A stretch of 41,472 bases of DNA from an uncultured archaeon (GCA_964342815.1 CAYFHS010000035.1:5077-46548), one strand, 5' to 3'; shown: positions 1-41,472, numbered from the stretch's first letter. Made by a program: numbers and translations. Notes: generated from the sequence alone by a model not told the origin.

Positions 1-1
1 T

Positions 2-16965: not shown

Positions 16966-17047
16966 GTATTATTCACCTTCTTTCAGCTACGCTTGGTATT
17001 TGCATAAAAAAATGTTCAACATTGGAAAATTAAATGGAGAGCTGTGC

Positions 17048-24998: not shown

Positions 24999-25166
24999 AG
25001 ATCGAAGCTTGTTCTACACAATGCCTGGCACGGTCTTCACAAATAAATCATTATAAACAAAAGTATTATGTATTATCTTATGTTTCGGAAAAACCATTAT
25101 GGAATATTTATATAGTTATTGGTATGTTTTTCCAATTTCCTTTCGTGATTCTTTAAGGTGTCATAG

Positions 25167-28100
25167 ATGGTGAATGAATCGGTTAAAAAAACGGCGGAAA
25201 AGGCGAATTCCGAGGAAGATACTTCCGAGATAGATCAGCAGAAAGATGATCACAACGGGAAGGAAATCTCCGAAGAGAATCGCATCTCTGCGGAAGGAGA
25301 GGAAGAGGATAAAGGATCCAAGATCGATGAAACCCTTTCTGAAGAAAGCGATCTCTCGTCTCAGGTGGAGCATGAGCGCATGTATGATGAACAATCTCCT
25401 GATGCTCTCACCCTCATTGGCGATCTGAAAGAGGGTGGACGTTACAAAGGCATCATCACCGCTATAAAGGACCTTCGTTCGTCTATGGATGAAAAGATAC
25501 AGGTCCGTCTCCGAAAGATAAGCGAACAACGTTTGGAAGAAGCCGAACAGTCTCTAAACGATTTAGAGGAGGAGAGCGGAAGGGACTTCGACGAACTGAG
25601 AGATTTTCTTGAACATGCCAATACAGCAATGTCTCAGGGCGATTATGATTCTGTTGATACCTTTTTGGATTCGTACATCAGGACCAAGGAAAGCCATGAG
25701 GACCGTGTTCTTTTGGAAAAATACCGGCAGGAAATGAAAAAACTCCGTTCTGACTTATCCATTCTTGAAGAAGCCGGAATTGAACCGCCCGGTAGTGAAA
25801 GGAATATTTCCTCCATTGAAAGAGGTATGGCAGCCCGGCAGTTTGACATGGTAAAAGAAATGATGAAGGAAACAGCTCAGCGGATCAATGATGCAAAGAC
25901 CACTACCGCCAAGAACGTCGCACGAATCGAATTCGCCAGTGTGAAGAGCTCCTTTGACAGACTGAAAAAGACCGGTTTAGAGCTCACAGAAGAAAAAAAG
26001 ATATTCCGAGATGCAATGATCGCTATCAAGAAACAGCAATACCTTGAAGGATGTATACTTCTACGTCGCACAAGCCATTTGCTGGAAAAAGCAGATACGG
26101 GGCGATTGAGGGGGGTTTTATCATCCCGTCTTGAGGAGCACCGAAAATTCTTTTTAATGATCGAGAGCCAGCAGTATTTCTCTGCAGATTACCGTAATAG
26201 CATAAAGGAAGCATTGAATGACCTCGAGGGAATGATCGATGAAGGACAGATAAGCAAAGCGGAATCGGAAATGAAGATGTTTCACAAAATTATGCAGGAT
26301 CTGAAGGACAAAATGGATAAATTCGACCGCACGAAGGTATTGTCGGATGAAGTGACGACACTAATGGAAAAGTCTGAGGAAATGGAAATAGATGTCAAGA
26401 AAGAAATGGAGATGGCCGAGGAGAGTAAGAAACATTTGGAATCGGATAACACGGAGGACGCACATATCCTTCTTATCCAGACGAAGAACTCTCTCCTAAA
26501 TCGGATGGAACAACACCTCAGAGGAGAAGCCGAGAAGCAGTTGAAGGAAGGAAAGAGCGCCATATATGATAATCGAGAGGTAATTGAAGATACTTCCAAG
26601 ATCAATCTTCACCTATTGAATGCAAATACATATTTTGCTCAAAGGAAATATGAACACACAATAAAAACAGTATCCAAGATAATACAGCTGATCGGCGAAA
26701 TGAAAGAGCGAAAAACCACATCAGCAACGAAAAGCCTATTTTCGGAAGCGGAAACGGCCATAAACGAAAACAAAGAAAGAGGAATCAAGGTTTTCGAATC
26801 TGAAGCACTTTATTACAAAGCCAAGTTCTTTTTTGAAAAGAACGACCTTGATCAAGCCACCACTTACGCCAGAAGTTCTCTGAATTGCACTATACGGGAA
26901 CGGACCGAAGTAGAGAAGAAGAAAGCCCGCCTCCCTCTTACCCAGGCTCAGCAATTCATGAAGGAAGCGGTTGCTATCGGTGCGGATGTGAAGGCTTCCA
27001 GTGGGATTATAATAAGTGCTCAGAAATATTTTGACAATGGAAAATTCTCCAAGGCCGCGGAGTGGGCGAATCTTGCCAAAAACGAGATCGAGGAATCCAT
27101 AAACAAGCGATTGTTATCTATCATAAAAGACAAAAAACACGAAGTTGAGTCGTTATTCGCTGAAGCTGGAGAAATTAATCTGGATATCGATGTGGAAAGT
27201 CGGCATTTCAGTACTATTGATGAGCTTCAGACTGGAAAAAAATACCGTGAAGCCATTGATGTTCTCAAAATGATACAGAGTTCTATGAAAAAGATGATCA
27301 AGGAAGGAATAAGGAGGATAAATGCCGAAAAGATCGATAATGCTCAGGAATCCCTTTCTGTGCTGCAAGAGACGTGGGGACTGAATTTTGAGGAGCTGGG
27401 AGAAACCTTGGAAATGGCAAGTTCTGCGCTTCAGGAGGGCCGATACGAAATCCTAGATGCCCATATCGAGGAATTCTCAAGGACGCGGGAACGACATCAC
27501 AATGTTCGTTTATCTGAATCCTATGCGAGCAAAGTCGCGGATGTAGCACCTGACCTTGAAACCCTTAAGGGTCTTGGGATCGATATTTCGGGGGCGGATG
27601 AGTTGGTGGCATCCGTCAGCCATAGTATAACCAATTTTAATTTCGAGGATACGGAAAGATATTTGGCCAAATTATCGGAATTTATCGATGATGCCAGAAC
27701 GGTGAAGGCCAAAAAACGAGCCGGAGAGTACTTCAAAAAGACGAAAGGGATATTCCTTGAAATGAAGGACGAGGGTATTCCCATGGATGAGGCAAAGGAA
27801 CTTATCAAGGGAGCCCTTGGATATATCAATTCAAAGGATTATATAAAGGCAATCGAGGGGACACTGGTCGCCGAAAATGCTTTGTATGAGGCCAGAGACC
27901 GGTACTACAAAGCAGCCACGATAGTTCTTCTCGGTGAGATAAAGGAAATGGAGGGCGAGGGGGGAAAGTTAGGACTTGACCTTTCGGGCATCACTGGAAT
28001 GACCGGAGAGATTCAGACAAGTATTGAACAAGGGAACTTTTTGGAAGCTAGGGACTTGGCTGTACTCTGTAGTGATGAGCTTAAGAAAACCATAGAGAGC

Positions 28101-31100
28101 AAATTATTGGACATGCTGGAAAACAGCATGTCCCGATTAATGCCAGCCCTGGAAGAGGCAAGCGAAATTGGAGCTGATGTAAATGAAGAAAACGAAGTGC
28201 TCCCACAGCTCATAGAGATGAAAGAGAAGAAACAATACAGGGCGGCCATGGAAAGGATTGATTCACTGGCAAGATCGGTTGATAAGAAAAGAAATGCCCG
28301 ATTAAGACAGCTAAATTCCCAAAAGGTCTATGTCGCTGTGAACACAATGCTTACTCTTCAGGAGGAGACCGGGTGGGAATTGGACGAATTACAGATTCAT
28401 CTCGATAAAGCCCAGGAATCTCTGGAAAGGAACAATTATGAGGGAGTGGATGCTCATCTAAACGAATATTTTCAGTTGAAATCCGAAGCTAAGAACCGTT
28501 TTTTAAATGAAAAATACAGCAAGGAGCTACACGAGATAACTAGCAATATTCCCACACTACGGAAAGTGGGTATCGAAATTGACGATACGGATGAATTGAT
28601 CAATATCATTGAAGAAGACCTATCAAACAATAATTTCGACATGGTTGCAAAGAAAATGGATGACCTGTCGGCGTTGATGGATGAAGCAAGATCTATACGG
28701 GCAAGAAAACTGGCAAATAGGAGTTTCAATGATGCCAAAGGATTGTTCGTTCGGCTCAGGGATACCGATCTAGATATAAAAAAGGAGAAAGAGGATTTCA
28801 AAAAAGCAGTTGAAATGACGAAATCCAGGGATTTCGTAGGTGCTTGTGAGTTGATTTTAGATCTTATCGAACGGTTGGAGAAAGCCAATGAGGGTTATGT
28901 CCTCACAAAACTATACCAACAGCTTGAGGAAGCTGAAGTTTTCCATAAGAAATTACATGCACATGAGTACTTCCCCATAGAGACGAAGCGAGATTTCAAG
29001 AATTCTCTCAATGGGGTAATAACTATACTGGGAGAGAAAAATCTGTCTCTTGCAGGGGCCGAAATGAAAGATCTCGTTGATCGTATCATGCATTTGGAAT
29101 CAATTATGAGCAATTTCAACGAAACTTCAGGTCTTTTAACTGAACTGGGAGACCTGGTGGCGACGGGAAAGAAAATGGCCCTCGATACAGAGGTGGAAGA
29201 GCGGTCCCTCACGGAAGCCATGGAACTGAAGAGGACCGACAAGTTCATCGAAGCTATTTCCTTATTGAAGGAAGCCAAAGATGGCCTGGAACTTAAGATC
29301 GAAAACCGTAACGCCGAATTGGCAAAAGAATCAATCGAACAGGCTGAAAAGGACCTTGAGGACAGCATAGATATTTTCAAGGATCCCGATGCAATGATGC
29401 AGCGCCTGTCGGATGCAAAAGTTTTGTACGATAGAAAGGAGTATGAACATGCAGCCGAGATTTCGCGGGGGCTTATTCATATTATCGAGGAGGCCCGAGA
29501 ACAGAGAACGATAAAGGAACTTGGCCGTTTTATCAAGGATGCCCGGGATTTAATCGACGAGAATGAAAAACTAGGGATAGAAATATTCCAGTCCGACGCG
29601 CTCTATTATAAAGCAAGGTATCATTTCGAGAGAAAGGAGTACGAACAATCTCGGAAGTATTGTGACGAGGCCAAGGAAAACACAATAGAGAGCAGGACTG
29701 AGTTCCTTAGACGGGGGGCATCCGACGGCCTTAACGAAGCCTTGGACCGTTTGAAGAAATCCGTTGAGCTTAAATTGGATGTAAGCGACCCCGAGGAAAG
29801 GTTAAAAGAAGCAAGGAAACTCCATGAGGACAAGAAATATGAGGAAGCTAGAGCTCTCATAAACAACATTATAGATGAATTGGAAAAACAGCAATTCCAG
29901 CATCAAAAGGAAACACTCTCCGCCCAAATGAAGGATTTCAGGGAGTTCATCAAAAACCTTCAATCTCTTACCTATATTTCGGAGGAGTATGCCAGCAGAG
30001 TGGAACTGACCTATGAGGTGATGGAAGATCTGTTCCGGCAGGATGAACTCAGCAAACTCGAGATTAAGATCAGCCTGTTCCGGGACGATATGTCCAAACT
30101 TGAGAGAATGATGGGGCACCACGATGAGGCCCAACAGTTGATGCAATCTATCCAGCATCAGAGACATCGTGTTAGGGAACTTGATATCGATATCAGAAAG
30201 GAAGACGGTTGGTTGGATGATGCCCAGATGATGATGCAGGAGAAAAGATTCCGGGAAGCCACGCAGTTATTGAAAGGGACAAAAAATTCTCTTGAGAATA
30301 AAATAGAGATATTCCGGATGAAAAACGCTCAGGGCCTGCTGGAAAGGGCAGTTAGAATGGTGGAAGAGAATCAAAATATTATTGAAGAACTAAGTTCAAT
30401 GGAAGAATATTTCTCCACGGCAACCCGATTCATAGAGAAAAAGCAATACCTGGAGGCAACCGATTCACTCACCGAGCTGATACGTCTCATAGAGGAGATC
30501 CGGGAAAGGAAGAGATCGGAAGATATCGGAAACCTGCTTGATGAGATCAGAGAACTAATGATGGAGAACCAGAGCTTGGGTCTGGACATCTCCCCTTACA
30601 AAGACCGTTTGGACCAAGCAAGAGCATCACTGGAGAGAAAGAACTACGGATTGGCCGAGAAATACGGAAGAGAGGTCAGAGAAATCGCAATTGACAGCCA
30701 ACGAGCGTTTTACAAGATAAAATCCGCTTCACAACTCGAGGAGGTTATGGAAGGGATTCAGGAACTTAAAGACTTGGGTATCCAGACTTCAATCATGGAA
30801 GAGGAACTTGAAAATGTTCTGCTACTTCGGGAAAAGGCGGAATTCCACAAAGCAGTGGATCATTCCCTTAGCATCATTGACAGTATTAATGAAACGAGAA
30901 AACACCATTTCCGCGGCCAAGTTTCAGCATCTCTCACTGATCTGGATAAGATGATGGATAGAGGACGGGAGCTGGGTATTGAACTCAGCTCACTGAAAGA
31001 TGAGATGACCAGATGCACCACCTTATCCGAGGAAGAGAATTTCAAGGACGCCGTTGAGCTTTCAGAATCAGTGCGATCGAGATTGAGTGAGCTGATAGAC

Positions 31101-34100: not shown

Positions 34101-36674
34101 TCTGAAATCCTTCAGGCAAGGATACTTGATTTTTCAAATGCTATTGAGGAGGCAAAGGAGAAGGAAATCAGTATCGAGGATGAGGCTGACGCTCTGGTAG
34201 TAATAAAGAACCTGAAGAAAGGAGGGAAAATCAAGGAGGCTATCAGTACAATAAAAGGGATACAAACCTCTCTCGATACCAAATTAACAGAATATCGGAA
34301 GAAAGTCCACTTTGCTAGAATCAAGGAGGCTCGACACGAGTTAGACGAACTGGAAAGTGAAACCGGCGGACATTATAAGGAACTTCATTCCTACCTGTTT
34401 TCTGCCAAGGGTGCAATAGAAGGTGAAGATTTCGATGCTGAGAATGAATACCTTGAGAAGTTCCACAAGTACAAGACAGAATGCTCTATTCGATATTATA
34501 CGAAAAATTATACGGAAGAACTCGGAGAACTAAATGGAAAGAAAGATACAATACGGGAAGCAGGCATCGATGTGACGGATATAGATGGGATTTTGAGCAC
34601 GGTTGAAACAAGTGTGGCAGAAGAGGATTTCGAAAGTGCTCGACTCAGTTTAGATGTAGGAAAGGACCTTCTGGTGGAAGCTGAAACAGTAAGGGGCAAG
34701 GAGCTGGCATCTGGACTGTTGGAGGAACTCGGGAGAAAAACCACCGAAATCGAGGATCGGGACATAGATATCAAAACAGTTGCACAGGAGCTGGAACAAG
34801 TTCGCAGCCTTTTCGAAAAGGGAGATTACCTTGACATTTGTCGTACGATCCCGGAAATCGAAGCAAGCCTGGCAGATATCAGGGAAAAACATTACATAGA
34901 ACAGACAAAAGCGGCCCAATCGGAGATAGATCGGACAATGGAGCAAGGCCGCGGATTGGGCATTGACCTTGCTGAAATAGAGGAGAAGGCATCCATGGCC
35001 CAATATCATTTTGACTCCAATAGGTTTGAGGAGGCCCATGATGTTTTCAATCTAGCGCTCTCCGCTCTTAATGAGCTGATATCCGGGGAGCTTTCGCGTC
35101 GGATAAATACAAGCCTGTCCTCCATACATCCAATGATGGATGAGATCAAGGGATTTGGTATGGATGTGGGTAGTGAACTTAAAATACTGTCCGCGATAGG
35201 TGAGATGGAATCGGCAGGGAAGCTGGGTGATGTGCTTCCGATACTAGATGATGTGAAACAAACCCTCTATGACAAAAAGGACGCTTTTTTCAAGGAATTG
35301 AATTTGAACAAGATCAGTGAAGCCAGGAAAGATCTCGAGACGCTTCGAGATGAAACCGGTGGGGAACTGGAGGAGTTAACGCCACTCCTTGATAGAGCAG
35401 CAAAGGCTGTTGATGAAGGGAACTATGGAGAAGTGGATGTGGCTCTTGAAGACTTTCACTCCTTTAAAAGAACATATCGTGAACAATTTGCAAGGGGGAA
35501 ATTCGGGGAGGAAATGCAGGAATTGAAGGAAGATATCGACGAGTTAACGGGTTTCGGGATTGATCTGTCCTCGGCCGAGATGCTTCTCAACAGTACAAAG
35601 GATGTGCTGGATAGTGCTGAGCTGGACAAAATTGCCGAATCAATCACCGGGATAAACGAACTTTTGGAATACGCAAGGACAGAAGAAGTGGAAAAGAAGG
35701 CAAAGGAGTATTTTGCCATATCAAAAAAGATCTACACTCAATTAAAAGAAACGGATATGGATATCAAAGAGGAGAAGAATGTTTTCAGTAAAGCAGTGGA
35801 GTCTTTGAAGAAAAAGGACTACATTGCTGGTATAAGGTACGCTCTCAAAGCCAAGGAGCTTTTGAATCGGGCCCAGGAAAGGTATCTGGTCGAGAGGAGT
35901 TCAGCATCTGTAAAAGGTTTGCAGGTGTTGATGGACGAATCGAGGGAGATAGGTATGGATATTACATCAGTAGAAGTGATAATGTCCGACATACATGACT
36001 CTCTCAAACGCGATGATTTCAAAGGATTGGAAGAGCTGGTGGAAAAAGGAAAAGGGATCATTGCGGTGGCGCGGGAAGCGCATTTCGTCGAGATTGCAAC
36101 TGTATCATCTGATGAATTGGGAAGATTATTTGATGAAGCCCATAACCTTGACTTGGATGTCACTGAAGAGAAGAAGATTCCCGAGCAGGTAAAAGAACTT
36201 CTCCTGGCGGGTAATGCGAAGGAAGCAGCCGAGATGGCTGAAAAAGGCAGAGGGGATTTGCAAGCTCAGATCAATTCAAAGCTATCCGGGATACTAGGTA
36301 AGCGCTTGGATTCTGTAAAGCAGTTGATGGATCAGGGAAAAGACCTAGAGCTGGATATGACGAGGGAAGAGGAGGCCATGTCCGTAATGGAGGGTCTTCG
36401 GGAGATGGGCAAGTATCGTGATGCCATAGGGGCAATAAAGGCGATACAAGCGTCTCTGAGAGGTAAGTTGGAGGAACGGCGGGGGCCTGTCGAAGCTGCA
36501 ACATCTCCGGAAGCCCCGAAAGTTGCGGCCCTGGAAATCGAGAAAAATTCTTTGAGCCAGGAGATTGAGGGTCTGAACCAGGAAAAAGCGGGCCTTGAGC
36601 AGCAGAAGGCATCCATCCAAAATAGAAAGGCAGAGCTTATGGCACTCATTGCTCAAAAGGGAGGGGGCGTATAA
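25167..36674 (+). CDS. Giant (3835 aa) soluble all-helical repeat protein of unknown function
   Basis: Uninterrupted 11.5-kb ORF. Recurring ~55-aa helix-turn-helix units (e.g. 'xGIDIS..', 'ETGxE(Y/F/L)xEL'). No TM segment or signal peptide seen. C-terminal heptad coiled coil. Confidence 0.9.
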   Translation: MVNESVKKTAEKANSEEDTSEIDQQKDDHNGKEISEENRISAEGEEEDKGSKIDETLSEESDLSSQVEHERMYDEQSPDALTLIGDLKEGGRYKGIITAIKDLRSSMDEKIQVRLRKISEQRLEEAEQSLNDLEEESGRDFDELRDFLEHANTAMSQGDYDSVDTFLDSYIRTKESHEDRVLLEKYRQEMKKLRSDLSILEEAGIEPPGSERNISSIERGMAARQFDMVKEMMKETAQRINDAKTTTAKNVARIEFASVKSSFDRLKKTGLELTEEKKIFRDAMIAIKKQQYLEGCILLRRTSHLLEKADTGRLRGVLSSRLEEHRKFFLMIESQQYFSADYRNSIKEALNDLEGMIDEGQISKAESEMKMFHKIMQDLKDKMDKFDRTKVLSDEVTTLMEKSEEMEIDVKKEMEMAEESKKHLESDNTEDAHILLIQTKNSLLNRMEQHLRGEAEKQLKEGKSAIYDNREVIEDTSKINLHLLNANTYFAQRKYEHTIKTVSKIIQLIGEMKERKTTSATKSLFSEAETAINENKERGIKVFESEALYYKAKFFFEKNDLDQATTYARSSLNCTIRERTEVEKKKARLPLTQAQQFMKEAVAIGADVKASSGIIISAQKYFDNGKFSKAAEWANLAKNEIEESINKRLLSIIKDKKHEVESLFAEAGEINLDIDVESRHFSTIDELQTGKKYREAIDVLKMIQSSMKKMIKEGIRRINAEKIDNAQESLSVLQETWGLNFEELGETLEMASSALQEGRYEILDAHIEEFSRTRERHHNVRLSESYASKVADVAPDLETLKGLGIDISGADELVASVSHSITNFNFEDTERYLAKLSEFIDDARTVKAKKRAGEYFKKTKGIFLEMKDEGIPMDEAKELIKGALGYINSKDYIKAIEGTLVAENALYEARDRYYKAATIVLLGEIKEMEGEGGKLGLDLSGITGMTGEIQTSIEQGNFLEARDLAVLCSDELKKTIESKLLDMLENSMSRLMPALEEASEIGADVNEENEVLPQLIEMKEKKQYRAAMERIDSLARSVDKKRNARLRQLNSQKVYVAVNTMLTLQEETGWELDELQIHLDKAQESLERNNYEGVDAHLNEYFQLKSEAKNRFLNEKYSKELHEITSNIPTLRKVGIEIDDTDELINIIEEDLSNNNFDMVAKKMDDLSALMDEARSIRARKLANRSFNDAKGLFVRLRDTDLDIKKEKEDFKKAVEMTKSRDFVGACELILDLIERLEKANEGYVLTKLYQQLEEAEVFHKKLHAHEYFPIETKRDFKNSLNGVITILGEKNLSLAGAEMKDLVDRIMHLESIMSNFNETSGLLTELGDLVATGKKMALDTEVEERSLTEAMELKRTDKFIEAISLLKEAKDGLELKIENRNAELAKESIEQAEKDLEDSIDIFKDPDAMMQRLSDAKVLYDRKEYEHAAEISRGLIHIIEEAREQRTIKELGRFIKDARDLIDENEKLGIEIFQSDALYYKARYHFERKEYEQSRKYCDEAKENTIESRTEFLRRGASDGLNEALDRLKKSVELKLDVSDPEERLKEARKLHEDKKYEEARALINNIIDELEKQQFQHQKETLSAQMKDFREFIKNLQSLTYISEEYASRVELTYEVMEDLFRQDELSKLEIKISLFRDDMSKLERMMGHHDEAQQLMQSIQHQRHRVRELDIDIRKEDGWLDDAQMMMQEKRFREATQLLKGTKNSLENKIEIFRMKNAQGLLERAVRMVEENQNIIEELSSMEEYFSTATRFIEKKQYLEATDSLTELIRLIEEIRERKRSEDIGNLLDEIRELMMENQSLGLDISPYKDRLDQARASLERKNYGLAEKYGREVREIAIDSQRAFYKIKSASQLEEVMEGIQELKDLGIQTSIMEEELENVLLLREKAEFHKAVDHSLSIIDSINETRKHHFRGQVSASLTDLDKMMDRGRELGIELSSLKDEMTRCTTLSEEENFKDAVELSESVRSRLSELIDQRLNERTQRKIDDLSEAVEKAISLSIDVSAESEALRNVEVIQKEARYEEAADIILSNKVSVDNKINSYLRKTSMGKVNDIAKELSSFQEETGKEYSELESLVELANKSIEKMDYDALDSIIQEFGKLKEAHKKNYWSGWYSEQIEILKGEKQDIMRTSFDVSFVAKQLEILKDTVSRSDFEAAKEVLGEVKSAIREIKMVQLRVMAKDIISETKTIFDNMKNTDVELEREMKIFSEAWDSFKSRDFVDAVVQSSEARELIQSAHDGYFKEQALSILEDITVMMGENEDLMLDTRRLRETTDDLKLHLDERDVHSSIEIANGTWEELQDMVEAALNQNVEKALDDLREKMEEAVALELDLGDENESLNVIEGHKGEKRYREALNILEKNQTVLADKIIEGTVKKHSRMIDEARNALASLEEETEKDYRGLRAMLDEAFRANGKKEFDAVKDRLEEFYESKDKQYERALSEKYSKQMSSRELEITRIRELGIDCTIGDDLLSSARDHLYKNEFAMVLNFRQSLDEFIKDAKTVQAKNLAKDLMQKGKTGIRNLKGVGREVIEETKVLKEAINHIKEGEFLKGCELALEANRMLEAAYEEHLKNDITSQLAAFREFYREVEKNKYFTSEYKLRLKAMIEAAEFGLHQNRLKEVLEGVEAFKAVISETRARMENFQKSEHLLKINDELFGTALTLSINVALERTILKEVERLNVSGRLDDALPLLKEANESLENKIDLTRMEEANTLFEKVINKVSENEEAVKNISGLDDLISTAKVHMGEKKYDRFTEVSERIIRLVTEAKEKQLVDEIRPLIAECASIIEENRESGINIFNSEGMLNKAKLFLERKEYELAEEHSKSALEQALSDRRGFDKKNASSALAAAWGMISKSLEMGLEISEIEAMMATAQVLFKEEKFVKAAEAAKEARSVVMNGWEKHYVENTAKLKKQISEMVEEGRELELDMTPIEEMMEKTETHLKEANFKDAEGVARETKDILGEMIRSKLSEILQARILDFSNAIEEAKEKEISIEDEADALVVIKNLKKGGKIKEAISTIKGIQTSLDTKLTEYRKKVHFARIKEARHELDELESETGGHYKELHSYLFSAKGAIEGEDFDAENEYLEKFHKYKTECSIRYYTKNYTEELGELNGKKDTIREAGIDVTDIDGILSTVETSVAEEDFESARLSLDVGKDLLVEAETVRGKELASGLLEELGRKTTEIEDRDIDIKTVAQELEQVRSLFEKGDYLDICRTIPEIEASLADIREKHYIEQTKAAQSEIDRTMEQGRGLGIDLAEIEEKASMAQYHFDSNRFEEAHDVFNLALSALNELISGELSRRINTSLSSIHPMMDEIKGFGMDVGSELKILSAIGEMESAGKLGDVLPILDDVKQTLYDKKDAFFKELNLNKISEARKDLETLRDETGGELEELTPLLDRAAKAVDEGNYGEVDVALEDFHSFKRTYREQFARGKFGEEMQELKEDIDELTGFGIDLSSAEMLLNSTKDVLDSAELDKIAESITGINELLEYARTEEVEKKAKEYFAISKKIYTQLKETDMDIKEEKNVFSKAVESLKKKDYIAGIRYALKAKELLNRAQERYLVERSSASVKGLQVLMDESREIGMDITSVEVIMSDIHDSLKRDDFKGLEELVEKGKGIIAVAREAHFVEIATVSSDELGRLFDEAHNLDLDVTEEKKIPEQVKELLLAGNAKEAAEMAEKGRGDLQAQINSKLSGILGKRLDSVKQLMDQGKDLELDMTREEEAMSVMEGLREMGKYRDAIGAIKAIQASLRGKLEERRGPVEAATSPEAPKVAALEIEKNSLSQEIEGLNQEKAGLEQQKASIQNRKAELMALIAQKGGGV

Positions 36675-39600
36675 TGGTGAATTCTGACGGCCTTTCTCTT
36701 GAGGAAGAACTTGCTAAGCTTCTGGAAGAAGAGAAGAAAGTTGATGAACAGATCACCCAGATCTCTCAGAAGGAAGAAGAGAAAACGTATGAGCTGGAAC
36801 AGCTTGATAAGGATATTATAATAGCCCAAAAACTTCTGGACGAAGCCGTAGATGTTGGAATTGAAGAGGAACGCGTAGTTGAAATTTCAAAGGAAAAGAA
36901 GCTTGAGGAGGAGCGACTGGCCGAGGAAGCACGGATTGCAGAGGAGAGAAAGCTTGAAGAGGAACGATTGGCCGATACTGCGCTTGCGGCCAAGGAGAAA
37001 AAGCTCGCTCTGGATAAACTGAGCAAGGAGAGGAAGCTTGAGGAAGAACGCCTGGCAGAGGAGAAAAGGCTTGGGGAAGAGCGCCTGGCGGAGGAAAAGA
37101 AATTTGAGGAAGAACGATTGGCCGAAGAAGCTCGTGCGGCTGAGGAAAAGAAGCGTGAAGAGGAACGATTGGCCGAAGAAGCTCGCGCAGCTGAGGAAAA
37201 GAAGCGTGAAGAGGAACGATTGGCCGAAGAAGCTCGTACAGCTGAGGAAAAGAAGCTTGAGGAAGAACGATTGGCCGAAGAAGCTCGTGCGGCTGAGGAA
37301 AAGAAGCTTGAGGAAGAACGATTGGCCGAAGAAGCTCGTGCAGCAGAAGCCAAAAGACTCGAAGAAGAGAAATCTGCAAAGATCGCAGCCGAGGAAACGG
37401 AAGCGGCAGAAACTCTTGAGGCCATCAGAACACTTGTAAAAGAGAACGAGATTATGAAACTCGACATTTTCCAGCCCGAGGCGCTCTTACTGAAAGCTAG
37501 ATTGGCCCTTGATAATAAGAAATTCGATGAGGTGAGGGAATATTGTGCTGAGGCAAAGGAACTGACTCTCGCCCAGAGAAAGGCCGTTGAGGGCAAAGAT
37601 GCGGAGGAATTCGAAGCGGAGTTTGGAGAAATTCGCGATTTAATGATGATGGCGGAATATGGTGGTCTCAATGTAGAGAAAGAACAAGCAGAATTCGATG
37701 TTATACTGGATTTGAAGAAAGAGGAAAAATATATTGAGGCCCTCCAAAAAACGTTACAACTCAAAGCCCCTCTTGATCGAAGGCTATACGATGAGCTTCA
37801 TGTGGTCAAGATCGAGAATATCGACCGGGCATTGACCGAATTGGAGGAATTCATCAAAGAAACTGGGATCGAATTCGCTGATCTAAATACTTTCCTGGTA
37901 GCGGCAACGGAAGCCCTAAAGGAAAAAGATTACAAAAAATTGGATGCATCACTGGAGCAGTTCCGCATTTCCAAAGAAAAGCACATCGAGAGGATGACCG
38001 CCGAGAAATATGACCAGATCATAAGTGAGATTGAAGATGATGCCGCTAAATTGGAAGCGGTAGGGCTGGAGGTCGAGTTTGTGGGTGACCTCGTCGGCAT
38101 AGCGAAAGAAAGCCTTTCCCTGTCCCAAACAGAAGCCGGGGAGGGTTATCTGGACAAGGCCCGATCTCTCCTTGAAAAGCTAAAAGGTACGGAATTGAAA
38201 GAGCTTGCAAAGGAGCATTTTTCCGAGGCCAAGAAGGTATTCTCGCTAATAAAGAAAGCAGGTATAAAGGCGGATGATGGAAAGCAAAAACTGAAAGAGA
38301 CCATCGCTGTCTTCAGAAAGAAGGACTATCTCGGGGCGGCTATTCTCTCACGTGAGGTAACCGAAGAGTTGACGAAACTCCACGATGCATTCAAAGCCCG
38401 GGAAGAGGAACAGAAGGAGATCGAATCGATCAATACTATGAAGGATGACTTGAAAAAATTGATCGAGGCTGCGGCGGCGAGAGGGCTGGATACTGGTCAT
38501 ATTGAAGAAAGGGTCGAGCTTTCCGGATTTAGGGTGGATGAAAAGAAATACAACGACGCAAAAGATATGCTCAATAAAGCCAAGGACGAACTACAGCAGA
38601 TGGTGGAAAGCGATGAGAAGGGTTCAATATTCAAAGCGAAGTTCGAAGAGCTTCCTGTATTACTGGATGAGCTGAAGAATAACGATCTTGACGTAACGGA
38701 GGAACTAAGTGAGATTGATGAAATTGCCGAAATGGAAAGGAAAACACGATACGTTGAGGGATTGGAGAGGATCGAAGAGCTAAGCTCGTCCCTTCTGAAC
38801 CGTATAAAAGAGGACCTCTACGAGCCTAGAGACAAGAGTATGAAGGAAGCTATCAAGCTGTTAAAAATTCACAAGGAAGAGGTAGGCGAGGGTTTCGAAG
38901 AGCTGCAGGGATTGCTGGTCAAGGCAAGAGAAGCTCTCGAGGAGAAGAGATATCGAGAAGCTGATGACCTTTTGGACAGTTTTGCTGAAAAGAAGCGGAC
39001 CCTGCGGGAAGATTTCGAACTGAAAGAATATGGGAGGAGGATCGAGCACCTCAGTTCGGAAATCTCTCTTATAAGTGAGCTTGAAATAGACGTGAGCGCA
39101 TGCGAAGACTTGGTGATGCTGGCGAAGAAAACGCTGGACCGAGGGGAAATTTCGGACCACCTGGAAAAGATGGTTGCCAATGCCGAGAAACTTTTCAAGG
39201 ACATACAGACGAAGGAACTATTCAACAAGGCCCGGGAATACGTTTACAAAGTGAAGACACAGATCGACGACCTTAAGAAGGAGGGTGGGGAAGTATCAAA
39301 CGAGGTAAAGATGCTTAAAAAAGCAATGGCTTCCATGGTGAAAAAAGATTATATCGGTACTTGCAAGATAGGTCAATCCATAAAGAATAACCTTGCCAAA
39401 ATGGAAGAGGAACTGAGCACGAAAAAATTAACTGCAGAACAGGAGGAGAAAAAAGCTAAGGTACTGGAGATCCTGGAAGCTGCGGAAGATATAATGGCTG
39501 AGGCAAGAGGGATGGGAGTGGAGGTAGGCCTCAACGCTGATAGACTCGAGATCGCAAGATCTCGATTCGATGAGGGGAAATTCGAGGATGCGTCAGAACT

Positions 39601-40795
39601 GGCCCTTACTGCAAGGAAGGATATCGAGGAAACTATCGAGAAGAAAAAGGCTGAGCGTGTTGATCGGGACAAAAAGGTGAAAGAACCAGAAACGAAACTT
39701 TCCTCGGTTGATGAAATTGAAGAACTTTTACCAGTTACGGATGGACTAGTAGAGAGAAAATGTCCCAGATGCAGGAGAACCGTACGGGGTTACGGGAAGA
39801 GATGTGTTCACTGCGGGGCCCTCATGGAGAAATCGAAGAAAAAGGAAATACGCTTTTGTGAGATATGCAATGGCGGTCTTGTACCGGAGGAAGATATCTT
39901 CGTGTGCCTGGACTGCGGCGCGGAATACGATTCTAGCGGAACCATTATAGTACCGGACGAAGCCCCAGACATTTCGGACTTGCTGGAGCAGGAAAGGGCT
40001 GCAGCTGCTGCCGAGGAGGAGCGTGAGAGGGAACAGCAAAAAAAGCTGGAGGAGGAAGAGAAATGGAAACGGATGGAAGAGGAGGAGAAAAAACGTTTGG
40101 AGGAAGAGTCCAAAGAAATGAGTGACAGTCTTTGCGAACTCTGCGGTGTTGAGCTTGAAGTCGAAGGCGATCTGCTTGTCTGTCCCCTATGCGGTGTGGA
40201 ATACACTCCGGAAGGAGAGGTAAGCGTATCGAAGGGTGAGAAAGGAGAGAACGAATGCGAGCTTTGCGGTGGGGCACTGGAGCCGAAAGGGAAGGGTTTG
40301 GTATGCACGATCTGTGAGGCGGAATACGATGCCAAAGGGAACTTCACTACACTTGCCGATGAGGAAGCCTACGGCGAGGCGATCGATAAGATGATCTCTA
40401 CCTTGGAAGATGAACCTGTTAAGAAGAAAGCACCAGCAAAGGGAAAACCCAAAATGGTCAAAAAGGCTGTGAAAAAAGTTTCAGATTCAAAGAAAGCTAA
40501 ACCCCCGAAAAAGGCCCCGGCTAAGATAACGCCACCGAAGAAGAAAGTCCCGGCAAAGATAACACCAAAAAAGAAAGCAGTGGCCAAAAAAGCCCCCGCA
40601 AAGAAACCAGCCGGAAAAAAACTCGTACCAGCGAAAAAACGACCTGCAAAGAAGGTGGCGGCCAAAAAGACTGGTAAAGGTCCTTCATGGGAACAGTTAA
40701 AGGCAGCAAAGGCGAAAAAGAAGAAAGGCAAGGGCAAAAAGAAAAAGCTGGAATATGACAAACCCCAGGTTTTTTCGTTCTTGAAGAAAAAATAA
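36674..40795 (+). CDS. Large (1373 aa) protein: N-terminal coiled coil, E/R/K single-alpha-helix repeats, helical units shared with the upstream giant protein, four Zn-ribbons, Lys/Ala/Pro-rich histone-H1-like tail
   Basis: Start overlaps the upstream stop (TAATG). EEERLAEEARAAEEKK repeats; CPRC..CVHC, CEIC..CLDC, CELC..CPLC, CELC..CTIC; KKAPAKKPAGKK tail. Confidence 0.9.
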   Translation: MVNSDGLSLEEELAKLLEEEKKVDEQITQISQKEEEKTYELEQLDKDIIIAQKLLDEAVDVGIEEERVVEISKEKKLEEERLAEEARIAEERKLEEERLADTALAAKEKKLALDKLSKERKLEEERLAEEKRLGEERLAEEKKFEEERLAEEARAAEEKKREEERLAEEARAAEEKKREEERLAEEARTAEEKKLEEERLAEEARAAEEKKLEEERLAEEARAAEAKRLEEEKSAKIAAEETEAAETLEAIRTLVKENEIMKLDIFQPEALLLKARLALDNKKFDEVREYCAEAKELTLAQRKAVEGKDAEEFEAEFGEIRDLMMMAEYGGLNVEKEQAEFDVILDLKKEEKYIEALQKTLQLKAPLDRRLYDELHVVKIENIDRALTELEEFIKETGIEFADLNTFLVAATEALKEKDYKKLDASLEQFRISKEKHIERMTAEKYDQIISEIEDDAAKLEAVGLEVEFVGDLVGIAKESLSLSQTEAGEGYLDKARSLLEKLKGTELKELAKEHFSEAKKVFSLIKKAGIKADDGKQKLKETIAVFRKKDYLGAAILSREVTEELTKLHDAFKAREEEQKEIESINTMKDDLKKLIEAAAARGLDTGHIEERVELSGFRVDEKKYNDAKDMLNKAKDELQQMVESDEKGSIFKAKFEELPVLLDELKNNDLDVTEELSEIDEIAEMERKTRYVEGLERIEELSSSLLNRIKEDLYEPRDKSMKEAIKLLKIHKEEVGEGFEELQGLLVKAREALEEKRYREADDLLDSFAEKKRTLREDFELKEYGRRIEHLSSEISLISELEIDVSACEDLVMLAKKTLDRGEISDHLEKMVANAEKLFKDIQTKELFNKAREYVYKVKTQIDDLKKEGGEVSNEVKMLKKAMASMVKKDYIGTCKIGQSIKNNLAKMEEELSTKKLTAEQEEKKAKVLEILEAAEDIMAEARGMGVEVGLNADRLEIARSRFDEGKFEDASELALTARKDIEETIEKKKAERVDRDKKVKEPETKLSSVDEIEELLPVTDGLVERKCPRCRRTVRGYGKRCVHCGALMEKSKKKEIRFCEICNGGLVPEEDIFVCLDCGAEYDSSGTIIVPDEAPDISDLLEQERAAAAAEEEREREQQKKLEEEEKWKRMEEEEKKRLEEESKEMSDSLCELCGVELEVEGDLLVCPLCGVEYTPEGEVSVSKGEKGENECELCGGALEPKGKGLVCTICEAEYDAKGNFTTLADEEAYGEAIDKMISTLEDEPVKKKAPAKGKPKMVKKAVKKVSDSKKAKPPKKAPAKITPPKKKVPAKITPKKKAVAKKAPAKKPAGKKLVPAKKRPAKKVAAKKTGKGPSWEQLKAAKAKKKKGKGKKKKLEYDKPQVFSFLKKK
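37106..37360 (+). repeat. Five in-frame 51-bp (17-aa) tandem repeats, with degenerate copies back to ~36905
   Basis: Units start at 37106, 37157, 37208, 37259 and 37310: GA(G/A)GA(A/G)GAACGATTGGCCGAAGAAGCTCG... Confidence 0.95.
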
Positions 40796-40851: not shown

Positions 40852-41472
40852 ATGGTATGTATTTTCACGGCTTTGATCCTTCTACCCGGAGGTCTCGCGG
40901 GATTCTTCCTCATTAAAACCGATTTATATGCTACTGAATCAAATAATGTCAATCTGAGGGATGTGCAGGGTGCAAGGACCGGGGACGGGCTCATCGCCCA
41001 GTGGAACATGGATGAAGGAAAGGGGGCTCATGTGGGCGATACCAGCGGGAATGGATGTGATGGCATCTTGGATGTTGGGGGAAGTGATGATCCCAACTCA
41101 AAATGGGTAAATGGAATTAGGGGGAAGGCATTGGATTTTGACGGAACTAATGATAGTGTCAATTGTGGAGAATTCGATCCTCCTCCTCAAGGTACGATTT
41201 TATTCTGGATGAACGCACGAAGAGTTACATGGGACAAGGATAGGATAATCGGAGGGGACGATGCTTATGAGATCAAGGCATTGAAATCAGGAACAGGTTA
41301 TATTATTACGAATGATCTTTGGATATGGGGTAGAGGGGTACAGATGAGTAAACGTGTCCTAAACTATAACGAATGGTATCATATAGCTTGCACCTACGAT
41401 ACAAGCAAGTTAAAAGAGATCTATATCAATGGTGTATTGGACATTTCGGAGATCCGATCACATTATGATCCG
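40852..41472 (+). CDS. LamG/concanavalin-A-like domain secreted or membrane-anchored protein, 3'-truncated; absent from the ORF track
   Basis: Stop-free frame from ATG 40852 to the window end. N-terminal hydrophobic segment, then GLIAQWNMDEGKG..VGDTSGNG..G...GIRGKALDFDG...TILFWM...WYHIACTYD....IYINGVL. The exact start is uncertain. Confidence 0.85.
   Translation, partial: MVCIFTALILLPGGLAGFFLIKTDLYATESNNVNLRDVQGARTGDGLIAQWNMDEGKGAHVGDTSGNGCDGILDVGGSDDPNSKWVNGIRGKALDFDGTNDSVNCGEFDPPPQGTILFWMNARRVTWDKDRIIGGDDAYEIKALKSGTGYIITNDLWIWGRGVQMSKRVLNYNEWYHIACTYDTSKLKEIYINGVLDISEIRSHYDP

What the first reader, a model, noticed from the sequence alone, without database searches (positions are those of the whole stretch)
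25167..40795. Coupled pair of giant helical-repeat proteins (5,208 aa total): candidate cytoskeletal or nucleoid scaffold
Seen: 15.6 kb encodes two soluble proteins whose stop and start overlap (TAATG at 36672-76). They share the same repeat types (ETGxE(F/Y/L)xxL..L..A; F(E/Q/N)(S/P)(E/D)(A/G)(L/M)xxKA(K/R)). The first ends in a heptad coiled coil and the second begins with one. The second ends in Zn-ribbons and a basic tail. Neither has an ATPase (SMC) motif, TM helix or signal peptide. Inference: the terminal coiled coils may dock head-to-tail into one very long spectrin- or plakin-like rod with a nucleic-acid- or membrane-binding end, i.e. an uncharacterised archaeal structural system.
Basis: partly seen in the sequence, partly recalled or inferred. 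Interest (0 to 1): 0.72.

Follow-up and report, generated by a model that had tools for sequence, protein, structure and literature searches.

The report
Split giant archaeal helical rod protein
Two overlapping genes of a marine archaeon (Thermoplasmatota) encode the two halves of one 5,208-residue cytoplasmic rod made of about 68 small helical bundles; related archaea make it as a single protein, it belongs to a large unnamed family, and its function is untested.

Summary
ORFs of 3,835 aa (25167-36674) and 1,373 aa (36674-40795) overlap at TAATG. They share one repeat system, have no ATPase motif or TM helix, and the second ends in four zinc ribbons and a Lys-rich tail.

New here:
- The repeat is a 66-aa unit arranged in 331-aa super-repeats. 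AlphaFold gives alternating 43- and 15-residue helices (pLDDT 91.7), so the units chain like spectrin or EzrA. Their sequence motif resembles one TPR hairpin.
- The pair is a fission of one gene. Collinear orthologs of 5,390 and 5,000 aa are single ORFs.
- The split is not an error. A second species has the same TAATG, and dN/dS is 0.11-0.12 in both halves.
- The break lies in a hypervariable hinge. The leucine-zipper-like end of the first protein and the heptad start of the second are absent from the fused forms. A complex prediction gives weak support for docking.
- Synonymous divergence has its deepest minimum of the whole locus at the junction.
- The "coiled coil" after residue 60 of the second protein is an E/R/K-rich, probably single, helix.

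Most likely function (inferred): a 0.2-0.3 µm structural tether with a basic anchoring end. This scan had already noted paralogs of the family on other DNA of this genome.

The parts
25107..25160 (+). Putative promoter and leader of the bicistronic unit: TTTATATA (25107-14) and AAGGTG (25155-60) ahead of the ATG at 25167
   Evidence: Read directly from the AT-rich 168-nt intergenic sequence. This is inference only; no archaeal promoter tool was available.
25167..36674 (+). ORF A, 3,835 aa: the N-terminal half of the split giant rod protein
   Evidence: dN/dS is 0.118 against the same-genus ortholog over 3,835 codons.
25167..25391 (+). Acidic, low-complexity N-terminal region (aa 1-75)
   Evidence: Sequence; it lies before the first repeat unit.
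25419..36434 (+). Rod 1: about 56 units of 66 aa (53 detected plus 3 unit-sized gaps), aa 85-3756, organised in 331-aa super-repeats
   Evidence: It aligns with the fused orthologs over about 3,700 aa with almost no indels.
33819..34811 (+). The modelled super-repeat (aa 2885-3215): five units, each a 43-residue helix, a loop, a 15-residue helix and a turn
   Evidence: AlphaFold2 with a 36-row alignment: pLDDT 91.7, pTM 0.61.
36387..36868 (+). Zone of suppressed synonymous divergence centred on the gene junction
   Evidence: pS falls to 0.145 against a locus mean of 0.593 (sd 0.106). It is the lowest of 510 sliding windows.
36477..36524 (+). Pro-rich linker (aa 3771-3786) between the last unit and the terminal helix
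36525..36659 (+). Leucine-zipper-like terminal helix of A (aa 3787-3831, six heptads): the proposed docking element
   Evidence: Heptad analysis. It is nearly invariant among 4 orthologs, has no counterpart in the fused orthologs, and the complex prediction gives weak support.
36660..36676 (+). Coupling site: SD-like GGAGGGGG, stop TAA (36672-74) and start ATG (36674-76) sharing one base
   Evidence: The same TAATG preceded by a G-run occurs in the second species. A local hairpin encloses the SD and AUG: -20.3 kcal/mol, z -2.8 here, but not significant in the other species.
36674..40795 (+). ORF B, 1,373 aa: the C-terminal half of the split protein
   Evidence: dN/dS is 0.110.
36692..36844 (+). 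N-terminal heptad helix of B (aa 7-57): the proposed docking partner
   Evidence: 71% hydrophobic a/d positions. It is largely invariant in 3 orthologs and absent from the fused forms.
36854..37408 (+). E/R/K/A/L-rich hinge (aa 61-245), probably a single alpha-helix spacer. It includes a 51-nt x 5 tandem repeat (37087-37341) that encodes 17-aa units.
   Evidence: Composition: E 35.5%, K+R 24.7%, 62% charged, 21% hydrophobic a/d positions. Tandem repeat. Another assembly of the same protein has one copy fewer (P0006).
37409..39688 (+). Rod 2: about 11-12 units of the same 66-aa repeat (aa 246-1005)
39761..40327 (+). Four CxxC...CxxC zinc ribbons (aa 1030-1218), with a ~50-aa charged helix between ribbons 2 and 3
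   Evidence: All 16 Cys are invariant in 6 orthologs. AlphaFold: four separate beta-ribbons, pLDDT 71. Pfam Prok-RING_1 (27.5 bits) and DZR are below cut-off.
40409..40792 (+). Lys/Ala/Pro-rich basic tail (aa 1246-1373). It carries the conserved GPSW motif and ends in a terminal motif (aa 1359-1373; 40748-40792) of Tyr/Phe, acidic, Pro, a short hydrophobic run and KKK.
   Evidence: Composition: K 35%, net charge +41. The terminal motif is conserved in split and fused orthologs.

Best explanation
ORFs A and B are the two halves of one giant cytoplasmic rod protein that underwent gene fission in this genus.

Shown by the analyses here:
- Both halves are built from one 66-aa helical unit, about 56 in A and about 12 in B, grouped in 331-aa super-repeats.
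- Each unit is predicted as a 43-residue helix plus a 15-residue return helix. Neighbouring units therefore share a continuous helix and chain into an extended rod rather than a compact solenoid.
- Orthologs in two other lineages are single polypeptides, collinear over about 3,700 aa of rod 1.
- The break falls in the one hypervariable segment, the hinge between rod 1 and rod 2.
- Both halves are under purifying selection, and the TAATG junction is conserved between species.

Inferred:
- The two cistrons are co-transcribed. B is translated by termination-reinitiation coupling, so the halves would be made in similar amounts.
- After translation the halves rejoin through the zipper-like C-terminal helix of A and the heptad N-terminal helix of B. 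Both are lineage-specific additions at the break.
- The reassembled molecule is a passive structural tether or ruler, roughly 0.2-0.3 µm long if extended. It consists of an acidic N-terminus, a long rod of fixed length, an E/R/K single-helix hinge of adjustable length, a short rod, and an anchoring module.
- The anchoring module is four Zn ribbons, a polybasic tail and a short hydrophobic-basic C-terminal motif. It binds a polyanionic surface, most likely the cytoplasmic face of the membrane, less likely nucleic acid.
For: ORFs, overlap and SD-like run.

Repeat system: fragment BLAST offsets of 331 and its multiples; autocorrelation peaks at 331 and 66; 53 and 12 unit-HMM hits.

Fold: AlphaFold2 pLDDT 91.7, with helices 6-48, 54-68, 72-114, 120-134 and so on.

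Fused orthologs: G003 has one ORF of 5,390 aa, and a metagenomic protein has 5,000 aa. A 1-3702 aligns to them over 3,653-3,699 positions at 38-45% identity. B 246-1373 aligns at 40-44%. Both outgroups are fused, so fission is the derived state.

The split is real. The same-genus genome G001 and a further metagenome contig carry 3,840- and 1,329-aa ORFs with the same one-base TAATG overlap. dN/dS is 0.118 for A and 0.110 for B, with dS about 1.16.

Junction-specific elements: A 3771-3835 and B 1-60 have no counterpart in the fused forms (best short-BLAST E 5.6-6.7, off position). They are nearly invariant among the split orthologs.

Docking: weak support. ipSAE was 0.54-0.56 in three runs against 0.01 for the best of 3 controls. 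The mark was reached by 58 of 80 solved complexes and 2 of 110 mismatched pairs. Scores of 0.60 or under were reached by only 7 of those 80 and by both passing mismatches. The runs agree in at least 92% of contacts and the partner's pLDDT is at least 81. My own small alignments were used, so these counts hold only roughly.

Nucleotide-level constraint at the junction: pS is 0.145 against a mean of 0.593, the lowest of 510 windows. dN falls much less there, which argues against recent recombination.

Hinge: 62% charged with no heptad seam. Its length differs between lineages: about 25 aa plus E/K repeats, about 208 aa, and about 370 aa. A 17-aa copy-number difference exists between assemblies. 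SAH domains are known spacers and springs that are often mistaken for coiled coils (PMC4183817, PMC4571873).

Cytoplasmic location: no TM helix or signal peptide, and the protein contains Zn ribbons.

Links to the membrane face: the same units sit on the cytoplasmic tails of an EMC3/TMCO1-like membrane protein and of a PKD-domain surface protein with a TM helix. The ortholog of the first lies next to the fused giant gene in G003. I counted about 10 of the 24 paralogs in this genome ending in Zn ribbons.
Against: - There is no expression, protein or localisation evidence.
- Support for docking is weak and comes from a single prediction on helices, a class that models pair readily.
- The hairpin over the SD and AUG is significant in only one of the two species.
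- The dip in synonymous divergence rests on two independent sequences. It could reflect another embedded element, such as an internal promoter.
- Rod geometry and length were not measured. pTM is only 0.61 and I had no coordinates.
- Structure searches gave no match above the noise level for helical proteins.
- The Zn ribbons and the Lys/Ala/Pro tail are equally typical of nucleic-acid binders. A weak sequence hit to the exosome Csl4 ribbon has E 0.044.
- Adjacency to the membrane protein is seen only in G003.
Confidence: 0.5

Rival explanations
1. This is the same split rod, but the basic end binds nucleic acid. The Zn ribbons and the H1-like Lys/Ala/Pro tail would attach the rod to the chromosome or to RNA and ribosomes, making it a nucleoid organiser or a chromosome-to-periphery tether rather than a membrane skeleton.
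For: There are four invariant Zn ribbons and a tail of 35% Lys with net charge +41. Weak resemblances exist to nucleic-acid-associated ribbons: exosome Csl4 at E 0.044, and TFS4, Rpb9 and ribosomal-protein ribbons in Foldseek at E 0.03 or weaker. An NCBIfam hit matches only the Lys-rich extension of a ValRS model.
Against: All of these matches are below significance. Polybasic tails bind acidic lipids equally well. The conserved terminal hydrophobic-basic motif and the paralogs on membrane-protein tails point to the membrane. No DNA-binding fold such as HTH or a histone fold was detected.
Confidence: 0.2
2. The two proteins do not rejoin. After fission they work separately: A as a free rod that perhaps self-associates through its zipper, and B as a shorter anchored rod. 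The terminal helices would then be homo-oligomerisation elements.
For: Leucine-zipper-like helices usually form homodimers. The genome holds many stand-alone paralogs of 400-2,400 aa with the same units. Support for docking is only weak.
Against: The one-base stop/start overlap and the constrained junction are conserved between species. Both helices arose only where the gene is split. The controls scored 0.00-0.01.
Confidence: 0.15
3. It is not a mechanical rod but a giant TPR-like interaction platform. Each 66-aa unit would be a modified TPR hairpin presenting a binding surface, so the protein recruits many clients along its length.
For: A profile of the super-repeat matches designed consensus TPR proteins, with a summed E of 7.6e-12. 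The loop, short helix, turn and start of the long helix align to a TPR A/B hairpin. Each unit is orthologous one-to-one across lineages with almost no indels. That fits position-specific roles as well as it fits a length constraint.
Against: No single TPR stretch is significant (best i-Evalue 0.6). Pfam TPR models do not reach threshold. The period is 66, not 34. The predicted 43-residue helices cannot make the TPR superhelix with its groove.
Confidence: 0.12
4. The split is a disabling mutation or an assembly error in a decaying giant gene.
For: Giant repetitive genes are prone to misassembly and frameshifts. One 17-aa repeat differs between assemblies.
Against: The identical junction occurs in an independently assembled second species and in another metagenome contig. 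Further 3,840-aa and 1,363-aa database orthologs exist. dN/dS is 0.11-0.12 in both halves. An SD-like run and an ATG sit exactly at the stop.
Confidence: 0.03

Closest known systems
Spectrin-repeat rods and the bacterial spectrin-like scaffold EzrA (PDB 4uxv/4uy3; PMC4243239)
   Same: Both are tandem small helical bundles in which a long helix runs from one bundle into the next, giving an extended, signal-less, enzyme-free rod with binding modules at the ends. EzrA chains were the top structural matches (Z 11.1 and 9.9).
   Different: The unit is 66 aa (43- and 15-residue helices), not about 106 aa with three similar helices. Pfam Spectrin gives no match. The Z-scores are below the level of about 13 that the tool gives as noise for helical proteins. 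The handedness of the bundle could not be checked. The protein is archaeal, lacks an actin-binding or TM end, and has about 68 units.
Tetratricopeptide repeat (TPR, Pfam clan CL0020), especially designed consensus TPR proteins (8bu0, 9qhb)
   Same: They share a sequence motif: a loop (G-L/I-D), a short helix, a turn (G/N-D/K-Y/F) and an Ala-rich start of the next helix. This aligns to one TPR A/B hairpin, with a summed E of 7.6e-12.
   Different: The period is 66, not 34. The B helix is extended to 43 residues. No single stretch is significant and no Pfam TPR model passes. The predicted shape is a chain of bundles, not a superhelix with a groove.
ER/K single alpha-helix (SAH) spacers, e.g. myosin and INCENP (PMC4183817, PMC4571873)
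   Same: B 61-245 is 62% charged (E, R, K), with Ala and Leu and no heptad seam. It sits between two folded parts, as SAH domains do.
   Different: This rests on composition alone and was not modelled or measured. The regular Leu residues every 5 or 12 positions are unusual for classical SAHs.
Docking domains of split modular synthases (PKS/NRPS); this comparison is from my own knowledge and was not tested here
   Same: In both cases short complementary terminal helices are added where a multi-module protein is divided into consecutive polypeptides, so that the order of assembly is kept.
   Different: There is no sequence or fold relation, and here the evidence for docking is only a weak prediction.
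Paralogs in the same genome noted earlier by this scan (7,274-aa and 2,448-aa proteins)
   Same: They carry the same 66-aa unit, recovered by my unit HMM with 100 and 20 hits. The 7,274-aa protein also ends in a Zn ribbon.
   Different: Those are single genes. This locus is the split member with fused orthologs, an E/R/K hinge, four ribbons and a polybasic tail.

Membership tests
Spectrin repeat (Pfam PF00435) | Sequence match to the spectrin-repeat profile | tested here: not met
   hmmscan of A and B at E up to 1 lists no Spectrin hit.
Spectrin repeat (Pfam PF00435) | A repeat of about 106 aa made of three helices of similar length | tested here: not met
   The period is 66 aa. The helices are 43 and 15 residues long.
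Spectrin repeat (Pfam PF00435) | Consecutive bundles joined by a continuous helix to form a rod | tested here: met
   The AlphaFold model (pLDDT 91.7) has 43-residue helices spanning neighbouring units. This is a prediction, not a solved structure.
Spectrin repeat (Pfam PF00435) | Structural match to solved spectrin or EzrA repeats | tested here: inconclusive
   EzrA scores Z 11.1 (136 aligned, rmsd 10.3) and Z 9.9. Both are under the noise level of about 13 that the tool states for helical proteins. Foldseek finds nothing at E<=0.001.
TPR (Pfam clan CL0020) | Significant match to a TPR profile | tested here: not met
   TPR_16 has E 0.98 and ANAPC3 has E 0.0095 (16.6 bits against a cut-off of 27.2).
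TPR (Pfam clan CL0020) | The 34-aa helix-turn-helix motif signature | tested here: inconclusive
   The profile matches consensus TPR designs with a summed E of 7.6e-12, but every single stretch has an i-Evalue of 0.6 or worse.
TPR (Pfam clan CL0020) | A 34-aa period with two ~14-residue helices per repeat, stacking into a superhelix | tested here: not met
   The period is 66, and the helices are 43 and 15 residues.
SMC / Rad50-type coiled-coil ATPases | Walker A/B ATPase head domains flanking the coiled coil | tested here: not met
   There is no Walker A motif and no SMC or AAA hit in Pfam or NCBIfam.
Classical two-stranded coiled-coil filament proteins (IF-like, crescentin, Scy/FilP) | A long uninterrupted heptad (or related) periodicity | tested here: not met
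   The rod is broken every 66 aa by loops and return helices. Heptad character is confined to A 3787-3831 and B 7-57.
ER/K single alpha-helix (SAH) | Very high E/R/K content with no hydrophobic seam | tested here: met
   B 61-245 is 62% charged and has 21% hydrophobic a/d positions in the best register.
ER/K single alpha-helix (SAH) | A monomeric, stable helix in solution | not testable with these tools
   Needs CD and SEC-MALS on the isolated segment.
Prok-RING_1 (PF14446) / DZR (PF12773) zinc ribbons | Profile match above the gathering score | tested here: not met
   Prok-RING_1 scores 27.5 bits against a cut-off of 29.1, and DZR 19.8 against 27.3.
Prok-RING_1 (PF14446) / DZR (PF12773) zinc ribbons | Paired CxxC knuckles on a small beta-ribbon | tested here: met
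   There are eight CxxC motifs in four pairs, all invariant in 6 orthologs. AlphaFold shows four short beta-ribbons.

The most novel reading that the evidence does not exclude
This class of Thermoplasmatota builds a cortical (sub-membrane) skeleton from a paralogous family of giant rods made of a 66-aa, TPR-derived, spectrin-like unit. The family has 24 genes and 32 kaa in this genome. The rods would be anchored through terminal Zn ribbons and polybasic tails and docked to membrane proteins that carry the same units. In this locus the rod length acts as a conserved molecular ruler, since about 3,700 aa are kept without indels at 38% identity, while an E/R/K single-helix hinge tunes reach. Gene fission was tolerated because newly acquired docking helices and translational coupling restore the full molecule.
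Probability: 0.2. Interest if true: 0.85.

Novelty: new variant of a known kind. Interest (0 to 1): 0.6.

Why it matters
Long spectrin-type rods are regarded as a eukaryotic invention, with one small bacterial analogue (EzrA). No archaeal counterpart turned up in my literature searches.

This locus belongs to a family of about 1,000 sequence clusters. The family occurs in nearly every sampled genome of one Thermoplasmatota class and takes up about 2% of this genome. It includes proteins of up to 7,686 aa, yet it has no name, no Pfam model and no known function.

The split and fused ortholog pair gives two natural experiments:
- It shows how a 5,000-residue structural protein can be divided and apparently reassembled through docking helices and a coupled, sequence-constrained junction.
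- It shows that rod length, but not hinge length, is kept constant.

If the cortical-skeleton or tether reading holds, it bears on how these archaea organise cell shape, their surface giants or their nucleoid. It would also supply a compact 66-aa rod module for protein engineering.

Tried and rejected
Tools that gave nothing:
It worked when restricted to a region.
I therefore could not see whether the 1,169- and 1,099-aa relatives P0008 and P0009 are split or truncated.
- The metagenome scan returned only one locus, from the same species as G001. Junction conservation therefore rests on two independent sequences.

Searches without significant hits:
- Foldseek against PDB, for the super-repeat and for the Zn-ribbon region, gave no hit at E<=0.001.
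- A PDB sequence search with the Zn region gave only E 0.044.
- The Atlas search returned only generic Thermoplasmatota DZR clusters at 0.79 or below.

Hypotheses rejected:
- A programmed -1 frameshift that makes a fused protein at the G-run. B is in the -1 frame, but G001 has a TAG in that frame two codons before the ATG.
- A stable extended RNA structure across the junction. The 201-nt folds have z -0.06 and +0.67. Only a 57-nt hairpin in this genome stands out.

Other checks:
- Gene context of the ~1,770-aa class-wide homologs showed no shared neighbours and only a marginal YfdX hit.
- The upstream PHP-domain gene is syntenic in all three genomes, but I found nothing that links it functionally to the rod genes.

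Full report
OBSERVATION. The window holds two co-oriented ORFs. A runs from 25167 to 36674 (3,835 aa) and B from 36674 to 40795 (1,373 aa). The stop TAA (36672-74) and the start ATG (36674-76) share one base, and GGAGGGGG lies 6 nt upstream of the ATG (36660-67). Pfam and NCBIfam give no family for A. For B they give only sub-threshold zinc-ribbon hits. There is no Walker A motif, and the highest 19-residue hydropathy is 1.25, so there is no TM helix or signal peptide. B carries eight CxxC motifs in four pairs at 1030-1214. Its tail (1225-1373) is 35% Lys with net charge +41. The neighbouring genes are archaeal: A-type ATPase subunits, archaeosine TGT, GT4 glycosyltransferases, and an IMPase and a PHP-domain gene upstream. 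The nearest relative is labelled a Thermoplasmatota MAG.

REPEAT ANATOMY. BLAST of 200-aa fragments of A against A gives about 100 internal matches. Their offsets are 331, 662, 997 and 1332 aa, plus 66 and 132, with E down to 1e-30. A BLOSUM autocorrelation over A 76-3770 peaks at lags 331 and 66, about 7 sd above the mean. An iterated HMM of the 66-aa unit finds 53 units in A between residues 85 and 3756. Three unit-sized gaps bring the estimate to about 56. The same HMM finds about 12 units in B between 207 and 1018. Both proteins are therefore arrays of one unit, arranged in five-unit super-repeats.

FOLD. I aligned 36 super-repeats from A, B, their orthologs and a paralog (alignment A1) and folded A 2885-3215. 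The result has pLDDT 91.7 and pTM 0.61. Helices of 43 and 15 residues alternate with a period of 66. Each unit is a long helix, a 5-residue loop, a short return helix and a 3-residue turn. Each small bundle is thus formed by the end of one long helix, the short helix and the start of the next long helix. This is spectrin-like chaining on a smaller scale. Foldseek found nothing in the PDB. The Foldseek-independent search ranked the spectrin-like bacterial division scaffold EzrA first (4uy3 Z 11.1, 4uxv Z 9.9), followed by generic 60-70-aa three-helix bundles. All of these are below the level of about 13 that the tool gives as noise for helical proteins (EzrA is described in PMC4243239). At the sequence level, the A1 profile matches designed consensus TPR proteins with a summed E of 7.6e-12. 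The G-L-D loop, the short helix, the G-D-Y turn and the Ala-rich helix start align to one TPR hairpin, but no single stretch is significant. My reading is that the unit is a TPR-like hairpin whose second helix has grown to 43 residues, which turns a solenoid into a rod. Homology to TPR is possible but not shown. From helix lengths alone I estimate 3-4 nm of rise per unit. That gives roughly 0.2-0.3 µm for the whole molecule including the hinge. This figure is inference, because I had no coordinates.

ONE GENE SPLIT IN TWO. A search of related genomes found three things:
- The same pair in a same-genus genome, G001 (3,840 and 1,329 aa).
- A single ORF of about 5,390 aa in a same-family genome, G003. 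It matches both the repeats and B's C-terminal module.
- Large paralogs in the window's own genome.

The exhaustive profile search added a 5,000-aa protein (P0014) with A's N-terminus and B's C-terminus in one chain. A 1-3702 aligns with these fused proteins over 3,699 and 3,653 positions at 45% and 38% identity, with almost no indels. B 246-1373 aligns at 44% and 40%. Both the nearer and the farther outgroup are fused, so fission in the G000/G001 lineage is the parsimonious reading.

The split is not an artefact. G001 and a further metagenome contig have the same one-base TAATG overlap behind a G-run. Database orthologs of 3,840 and 1,363 aa exist. dN/dS between the two species is 0.118 over A and 0.110 over B, at dS about 1.16.

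THE JUNCTION. The break lies in the only poorly conserved segment, the hinge between rod 1 and rod 2. In P0014 about 25 residues connect the last shared unit to E/K-rich repeats. In G003 the hinge is about 370 residues and carries five HEAT-like LLxHxDxEVRxAA motifs. In the split lineage the hinge has about 208 residues: one extra unit, a Pro-rich linker, a six-heptad zipper-like helix (A 3787-3831), then B's heptad helix (7-57) and the E/R/K segment. The zipper and B 1-60 have no counterpart in the fused proteins, and they are nearly invariant among the split orthologs.

The complex prediction for A 3776-3835 with B 1-62 gave weak support. ipSAE was 0.54-0.56 against 0.01 for the best of three controls. 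The mark was reached by 58 of 80 solved complexes and 2 of 110 mismatches. Scores of 0.60 or under were reached by only 7 of the 80 and by both passing mismatches. The runs agree in at least 92% of contacts and the partner's pLDDT is at least 81. My own small alignments were used. The prior is favourable, because these are two halves of a protein that is single elsewhere. I therefore hold docking as more likely than not, but unproven.

A NUCLEOTIDE-LEVEL SIGNAL. In 60-codon windows across both genes, synonymous divergence between the two species averages 0.593 (sd 0.106). It drops to 0.145 at A 3771-3830, which is the lowest of 510 windows. The trough spans about 36387-36868. dN falls only from 0.137 to 0.081 there, which argues for constraint on the RNA or DNA rather than recent recombination. 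A 57-nt hairpin pairs the SD-like G-run with B codons 5-10 and encloses the stop and start. It has -20.3 kcal/mol and z -2.8 here, but it is not significant in G001. The 201-nt folds are unremarkable. B is in the -1 frame of A, so I considered a frameshift that would make a fused product. G001 has a TAG in that frame two codons before the ATG, which excludes a shift at the G-run. Termination-reinitiation coupling is the simplest mechanism. The cause of the wider constraint is unexplained.

HINGE AND ANCHOR. B 61-245 is 35.5% Glu, 24.7% Lys+Arg, 18.8% Ala and 10.8% Leu, with only 21% hydrophobic a/d positions in the best heptad register. That fits an ER/K-type single alpha-helix, a known spacer or spring that is often mistaken for a coiled coil (PMC4183817, PMC4571873). 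It is encoded partly by a 51-nt x 5 tandem repeat. Another assembly of this protein has exactly one 17-aa copy fewer.

In the C-terminal module all 16 Cys are invariant in six orthologs. AlphaFold shows four separate ribbons with a 50-residue charged helix between ribbons 2 and 3 (pLDDT 71, pTM 0.26). Structure and sequence searches give only generic, non-significant ribbon matches. The Lys/Ala/Pro tail, a GPSW motif and a terminal hydrophobic-basic motif are conserved in split and fused forms.

THE FAMILY. The super-repeat profile finds 995 clusters at E<=1e-3 and 455 at E<=1e-10 among 1.84 billion representatives. They include proteins of 7,686 and 7,274 aa. Among 301 Thermoplasmatota genomes it occurs in nearly all sampled genomes of the window's class: 24 of 24 in the largest family and 3 of 3 in its own. 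Outside that class it appeared in only five genomes. In the window's own genome 24 ORFs carry the unit, totalling 32,231 aa, or about 2% of 4.35 Mb. I counted about ten of them ending in CxxC zinc ribbons. Two are membrane proteins with the units on the cytoplasmic side. One is an EMC3/TMCO1-like protein. Its ortholog lies directly downstream of the fused giant gene in G003 and also carries units. The other is a PKD-domain surface protein with a TM helix, two units and Zn ribbons.

MECHANISM AND RIVALS. The best-supported account is a cytoplasmic, non-enzymatic rod or tether, encoded here as two coupled cistrons and probably rejoined by lineage-specific docking helices. Its parts are an acidic N-terminus, a rod 1 of fixed length, an adjustable single-helix hinge, a shorter rod 2 and a basic anchoring end. 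I favour the membrane face as the target of the anchor, for three reasons: the polybasic tail, the terminal hydrophobic-basic motif, and the paralogs on membrane-protein tails. Nucleic acid is the main rival. Other rivals are independent function of the two products, a TPR-type client platform, and a broken gene, which the data contradict. Rod 1 is conserved unit by unit, without indels, at 38-45% identity, while the hinge varies freely. This suggests that length, or the identity of individual units, is under selection.

NOVELTY AND LIMITS. No curated family covers these proteins. My literature searches found no description of them. Earlier agents of this scan had already flagged paralogs of the same family in this genome. 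I re-derived the unit, the fold and the family independently. What is new here is the fission and fusion evidence, the junction features, the hinge and the anchor. Everything about function is inference.

Noticed in passing
window 37087-37341: A 51-nt x 5 tandem repeat (92% matches) encodes 17-aa E/R/K/A/L units of the hinge. A database copy of the same protein (P0006, 1,356 aa) has exactly one unit fewer, so hinge length varies within the population or between assemblies.
   Followed up: partly
window 36387-36868: Synonymous divergence between the two species has its deepest trough of the whole 15.6-kb locus at the A/B junction: pS 0.145 against a mean of 0.593. The cause is unexplained. Candidates are coupling signals, an internal promoter or another embedded element.
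   Followed up: partly
L012:5740-6654 (-), G003 fused ortholog residues 3740-4044: The hinge of the fused 5,390-aa ortholog carries five HEAT-like LLxHxDxEVRxAA motifs between E/K-rich helices (Pfam HEAT E 2.1e-10 for the segment). These motifs are absent from the window's proteins.
   Followed up: partly
L020 (G000:C18:29362-31026) and L012:2-1525: An EMC3/TMCO1-like (Oxa1-superfamily) membrane protein carries 3-5 of the same 66-aa units on its cytoplasmic tail. Its 47%-identical ortholog lies directly downstream of the fused giant gene in G003.
   Followed up: partly
L021 (G000:C4:32895-37229): A 1,445-aa surface protein has a signal peptide, PKD domains, one TM helix near residue 1039, then two rod units and C-terminal Zn ribbons on the cytoplasmic side.
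   Followed up: partly
whole genome G000 (/data/genome.fa): 24 ORFs carry the 66-aa unit (281 detected units, 32,231 aa, about 2% of the genome). By my count about 10 end in CxxC zinc ribbons. The largest is 7,274 aa (G000:C3:33293-55174).
   Followed up: partly
A 1-3702 against P0014 and P0003: Rod 1 aligns unit by unit with almost no indels across orthologs that are only 38-45% identical. This is unusual for a tandem-repeat protein and suggests selection on length or on the identity of each unit.
   Followed up: partly
window 24138-24998; L011:16467-17324; L012:18068-18952: A ~290-aa PHP-domain gene lies immediately upstream of the giant gene in all three genomes examined. In the two same-genus genomes an inositol-monophosphatase-family gene precedes it.
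   Followed up: no
window 16372-18415 (-): A 455-aa HEAT-repeat protein ending in a Zn ribbon lies next to a CPxCG-related zinc-finger protein (PF19769, E 6.6e-48).
   Followed up: no
window 2-4420 (+) and 40852-41472 (+): A 5'-truncated surface-type protein of at least 1,472 aa has CarboxypepD_reg, Big_1 and Fn3_arc-type repeats. A LamG-domain protein starts 57 nt after ORF B and is syntenic in G001.
   Followed up: no
L017:4920-10325 (-) and L018:6833-12076 (+): Most genomes of the largest sampled family in the class have a homolog of about 1,750-1,800 aa built from the same units. Its neighbours are not conserved between two genomes, and one copy gives a marginal YfdX hit (28 bits).
   Followed up: partly
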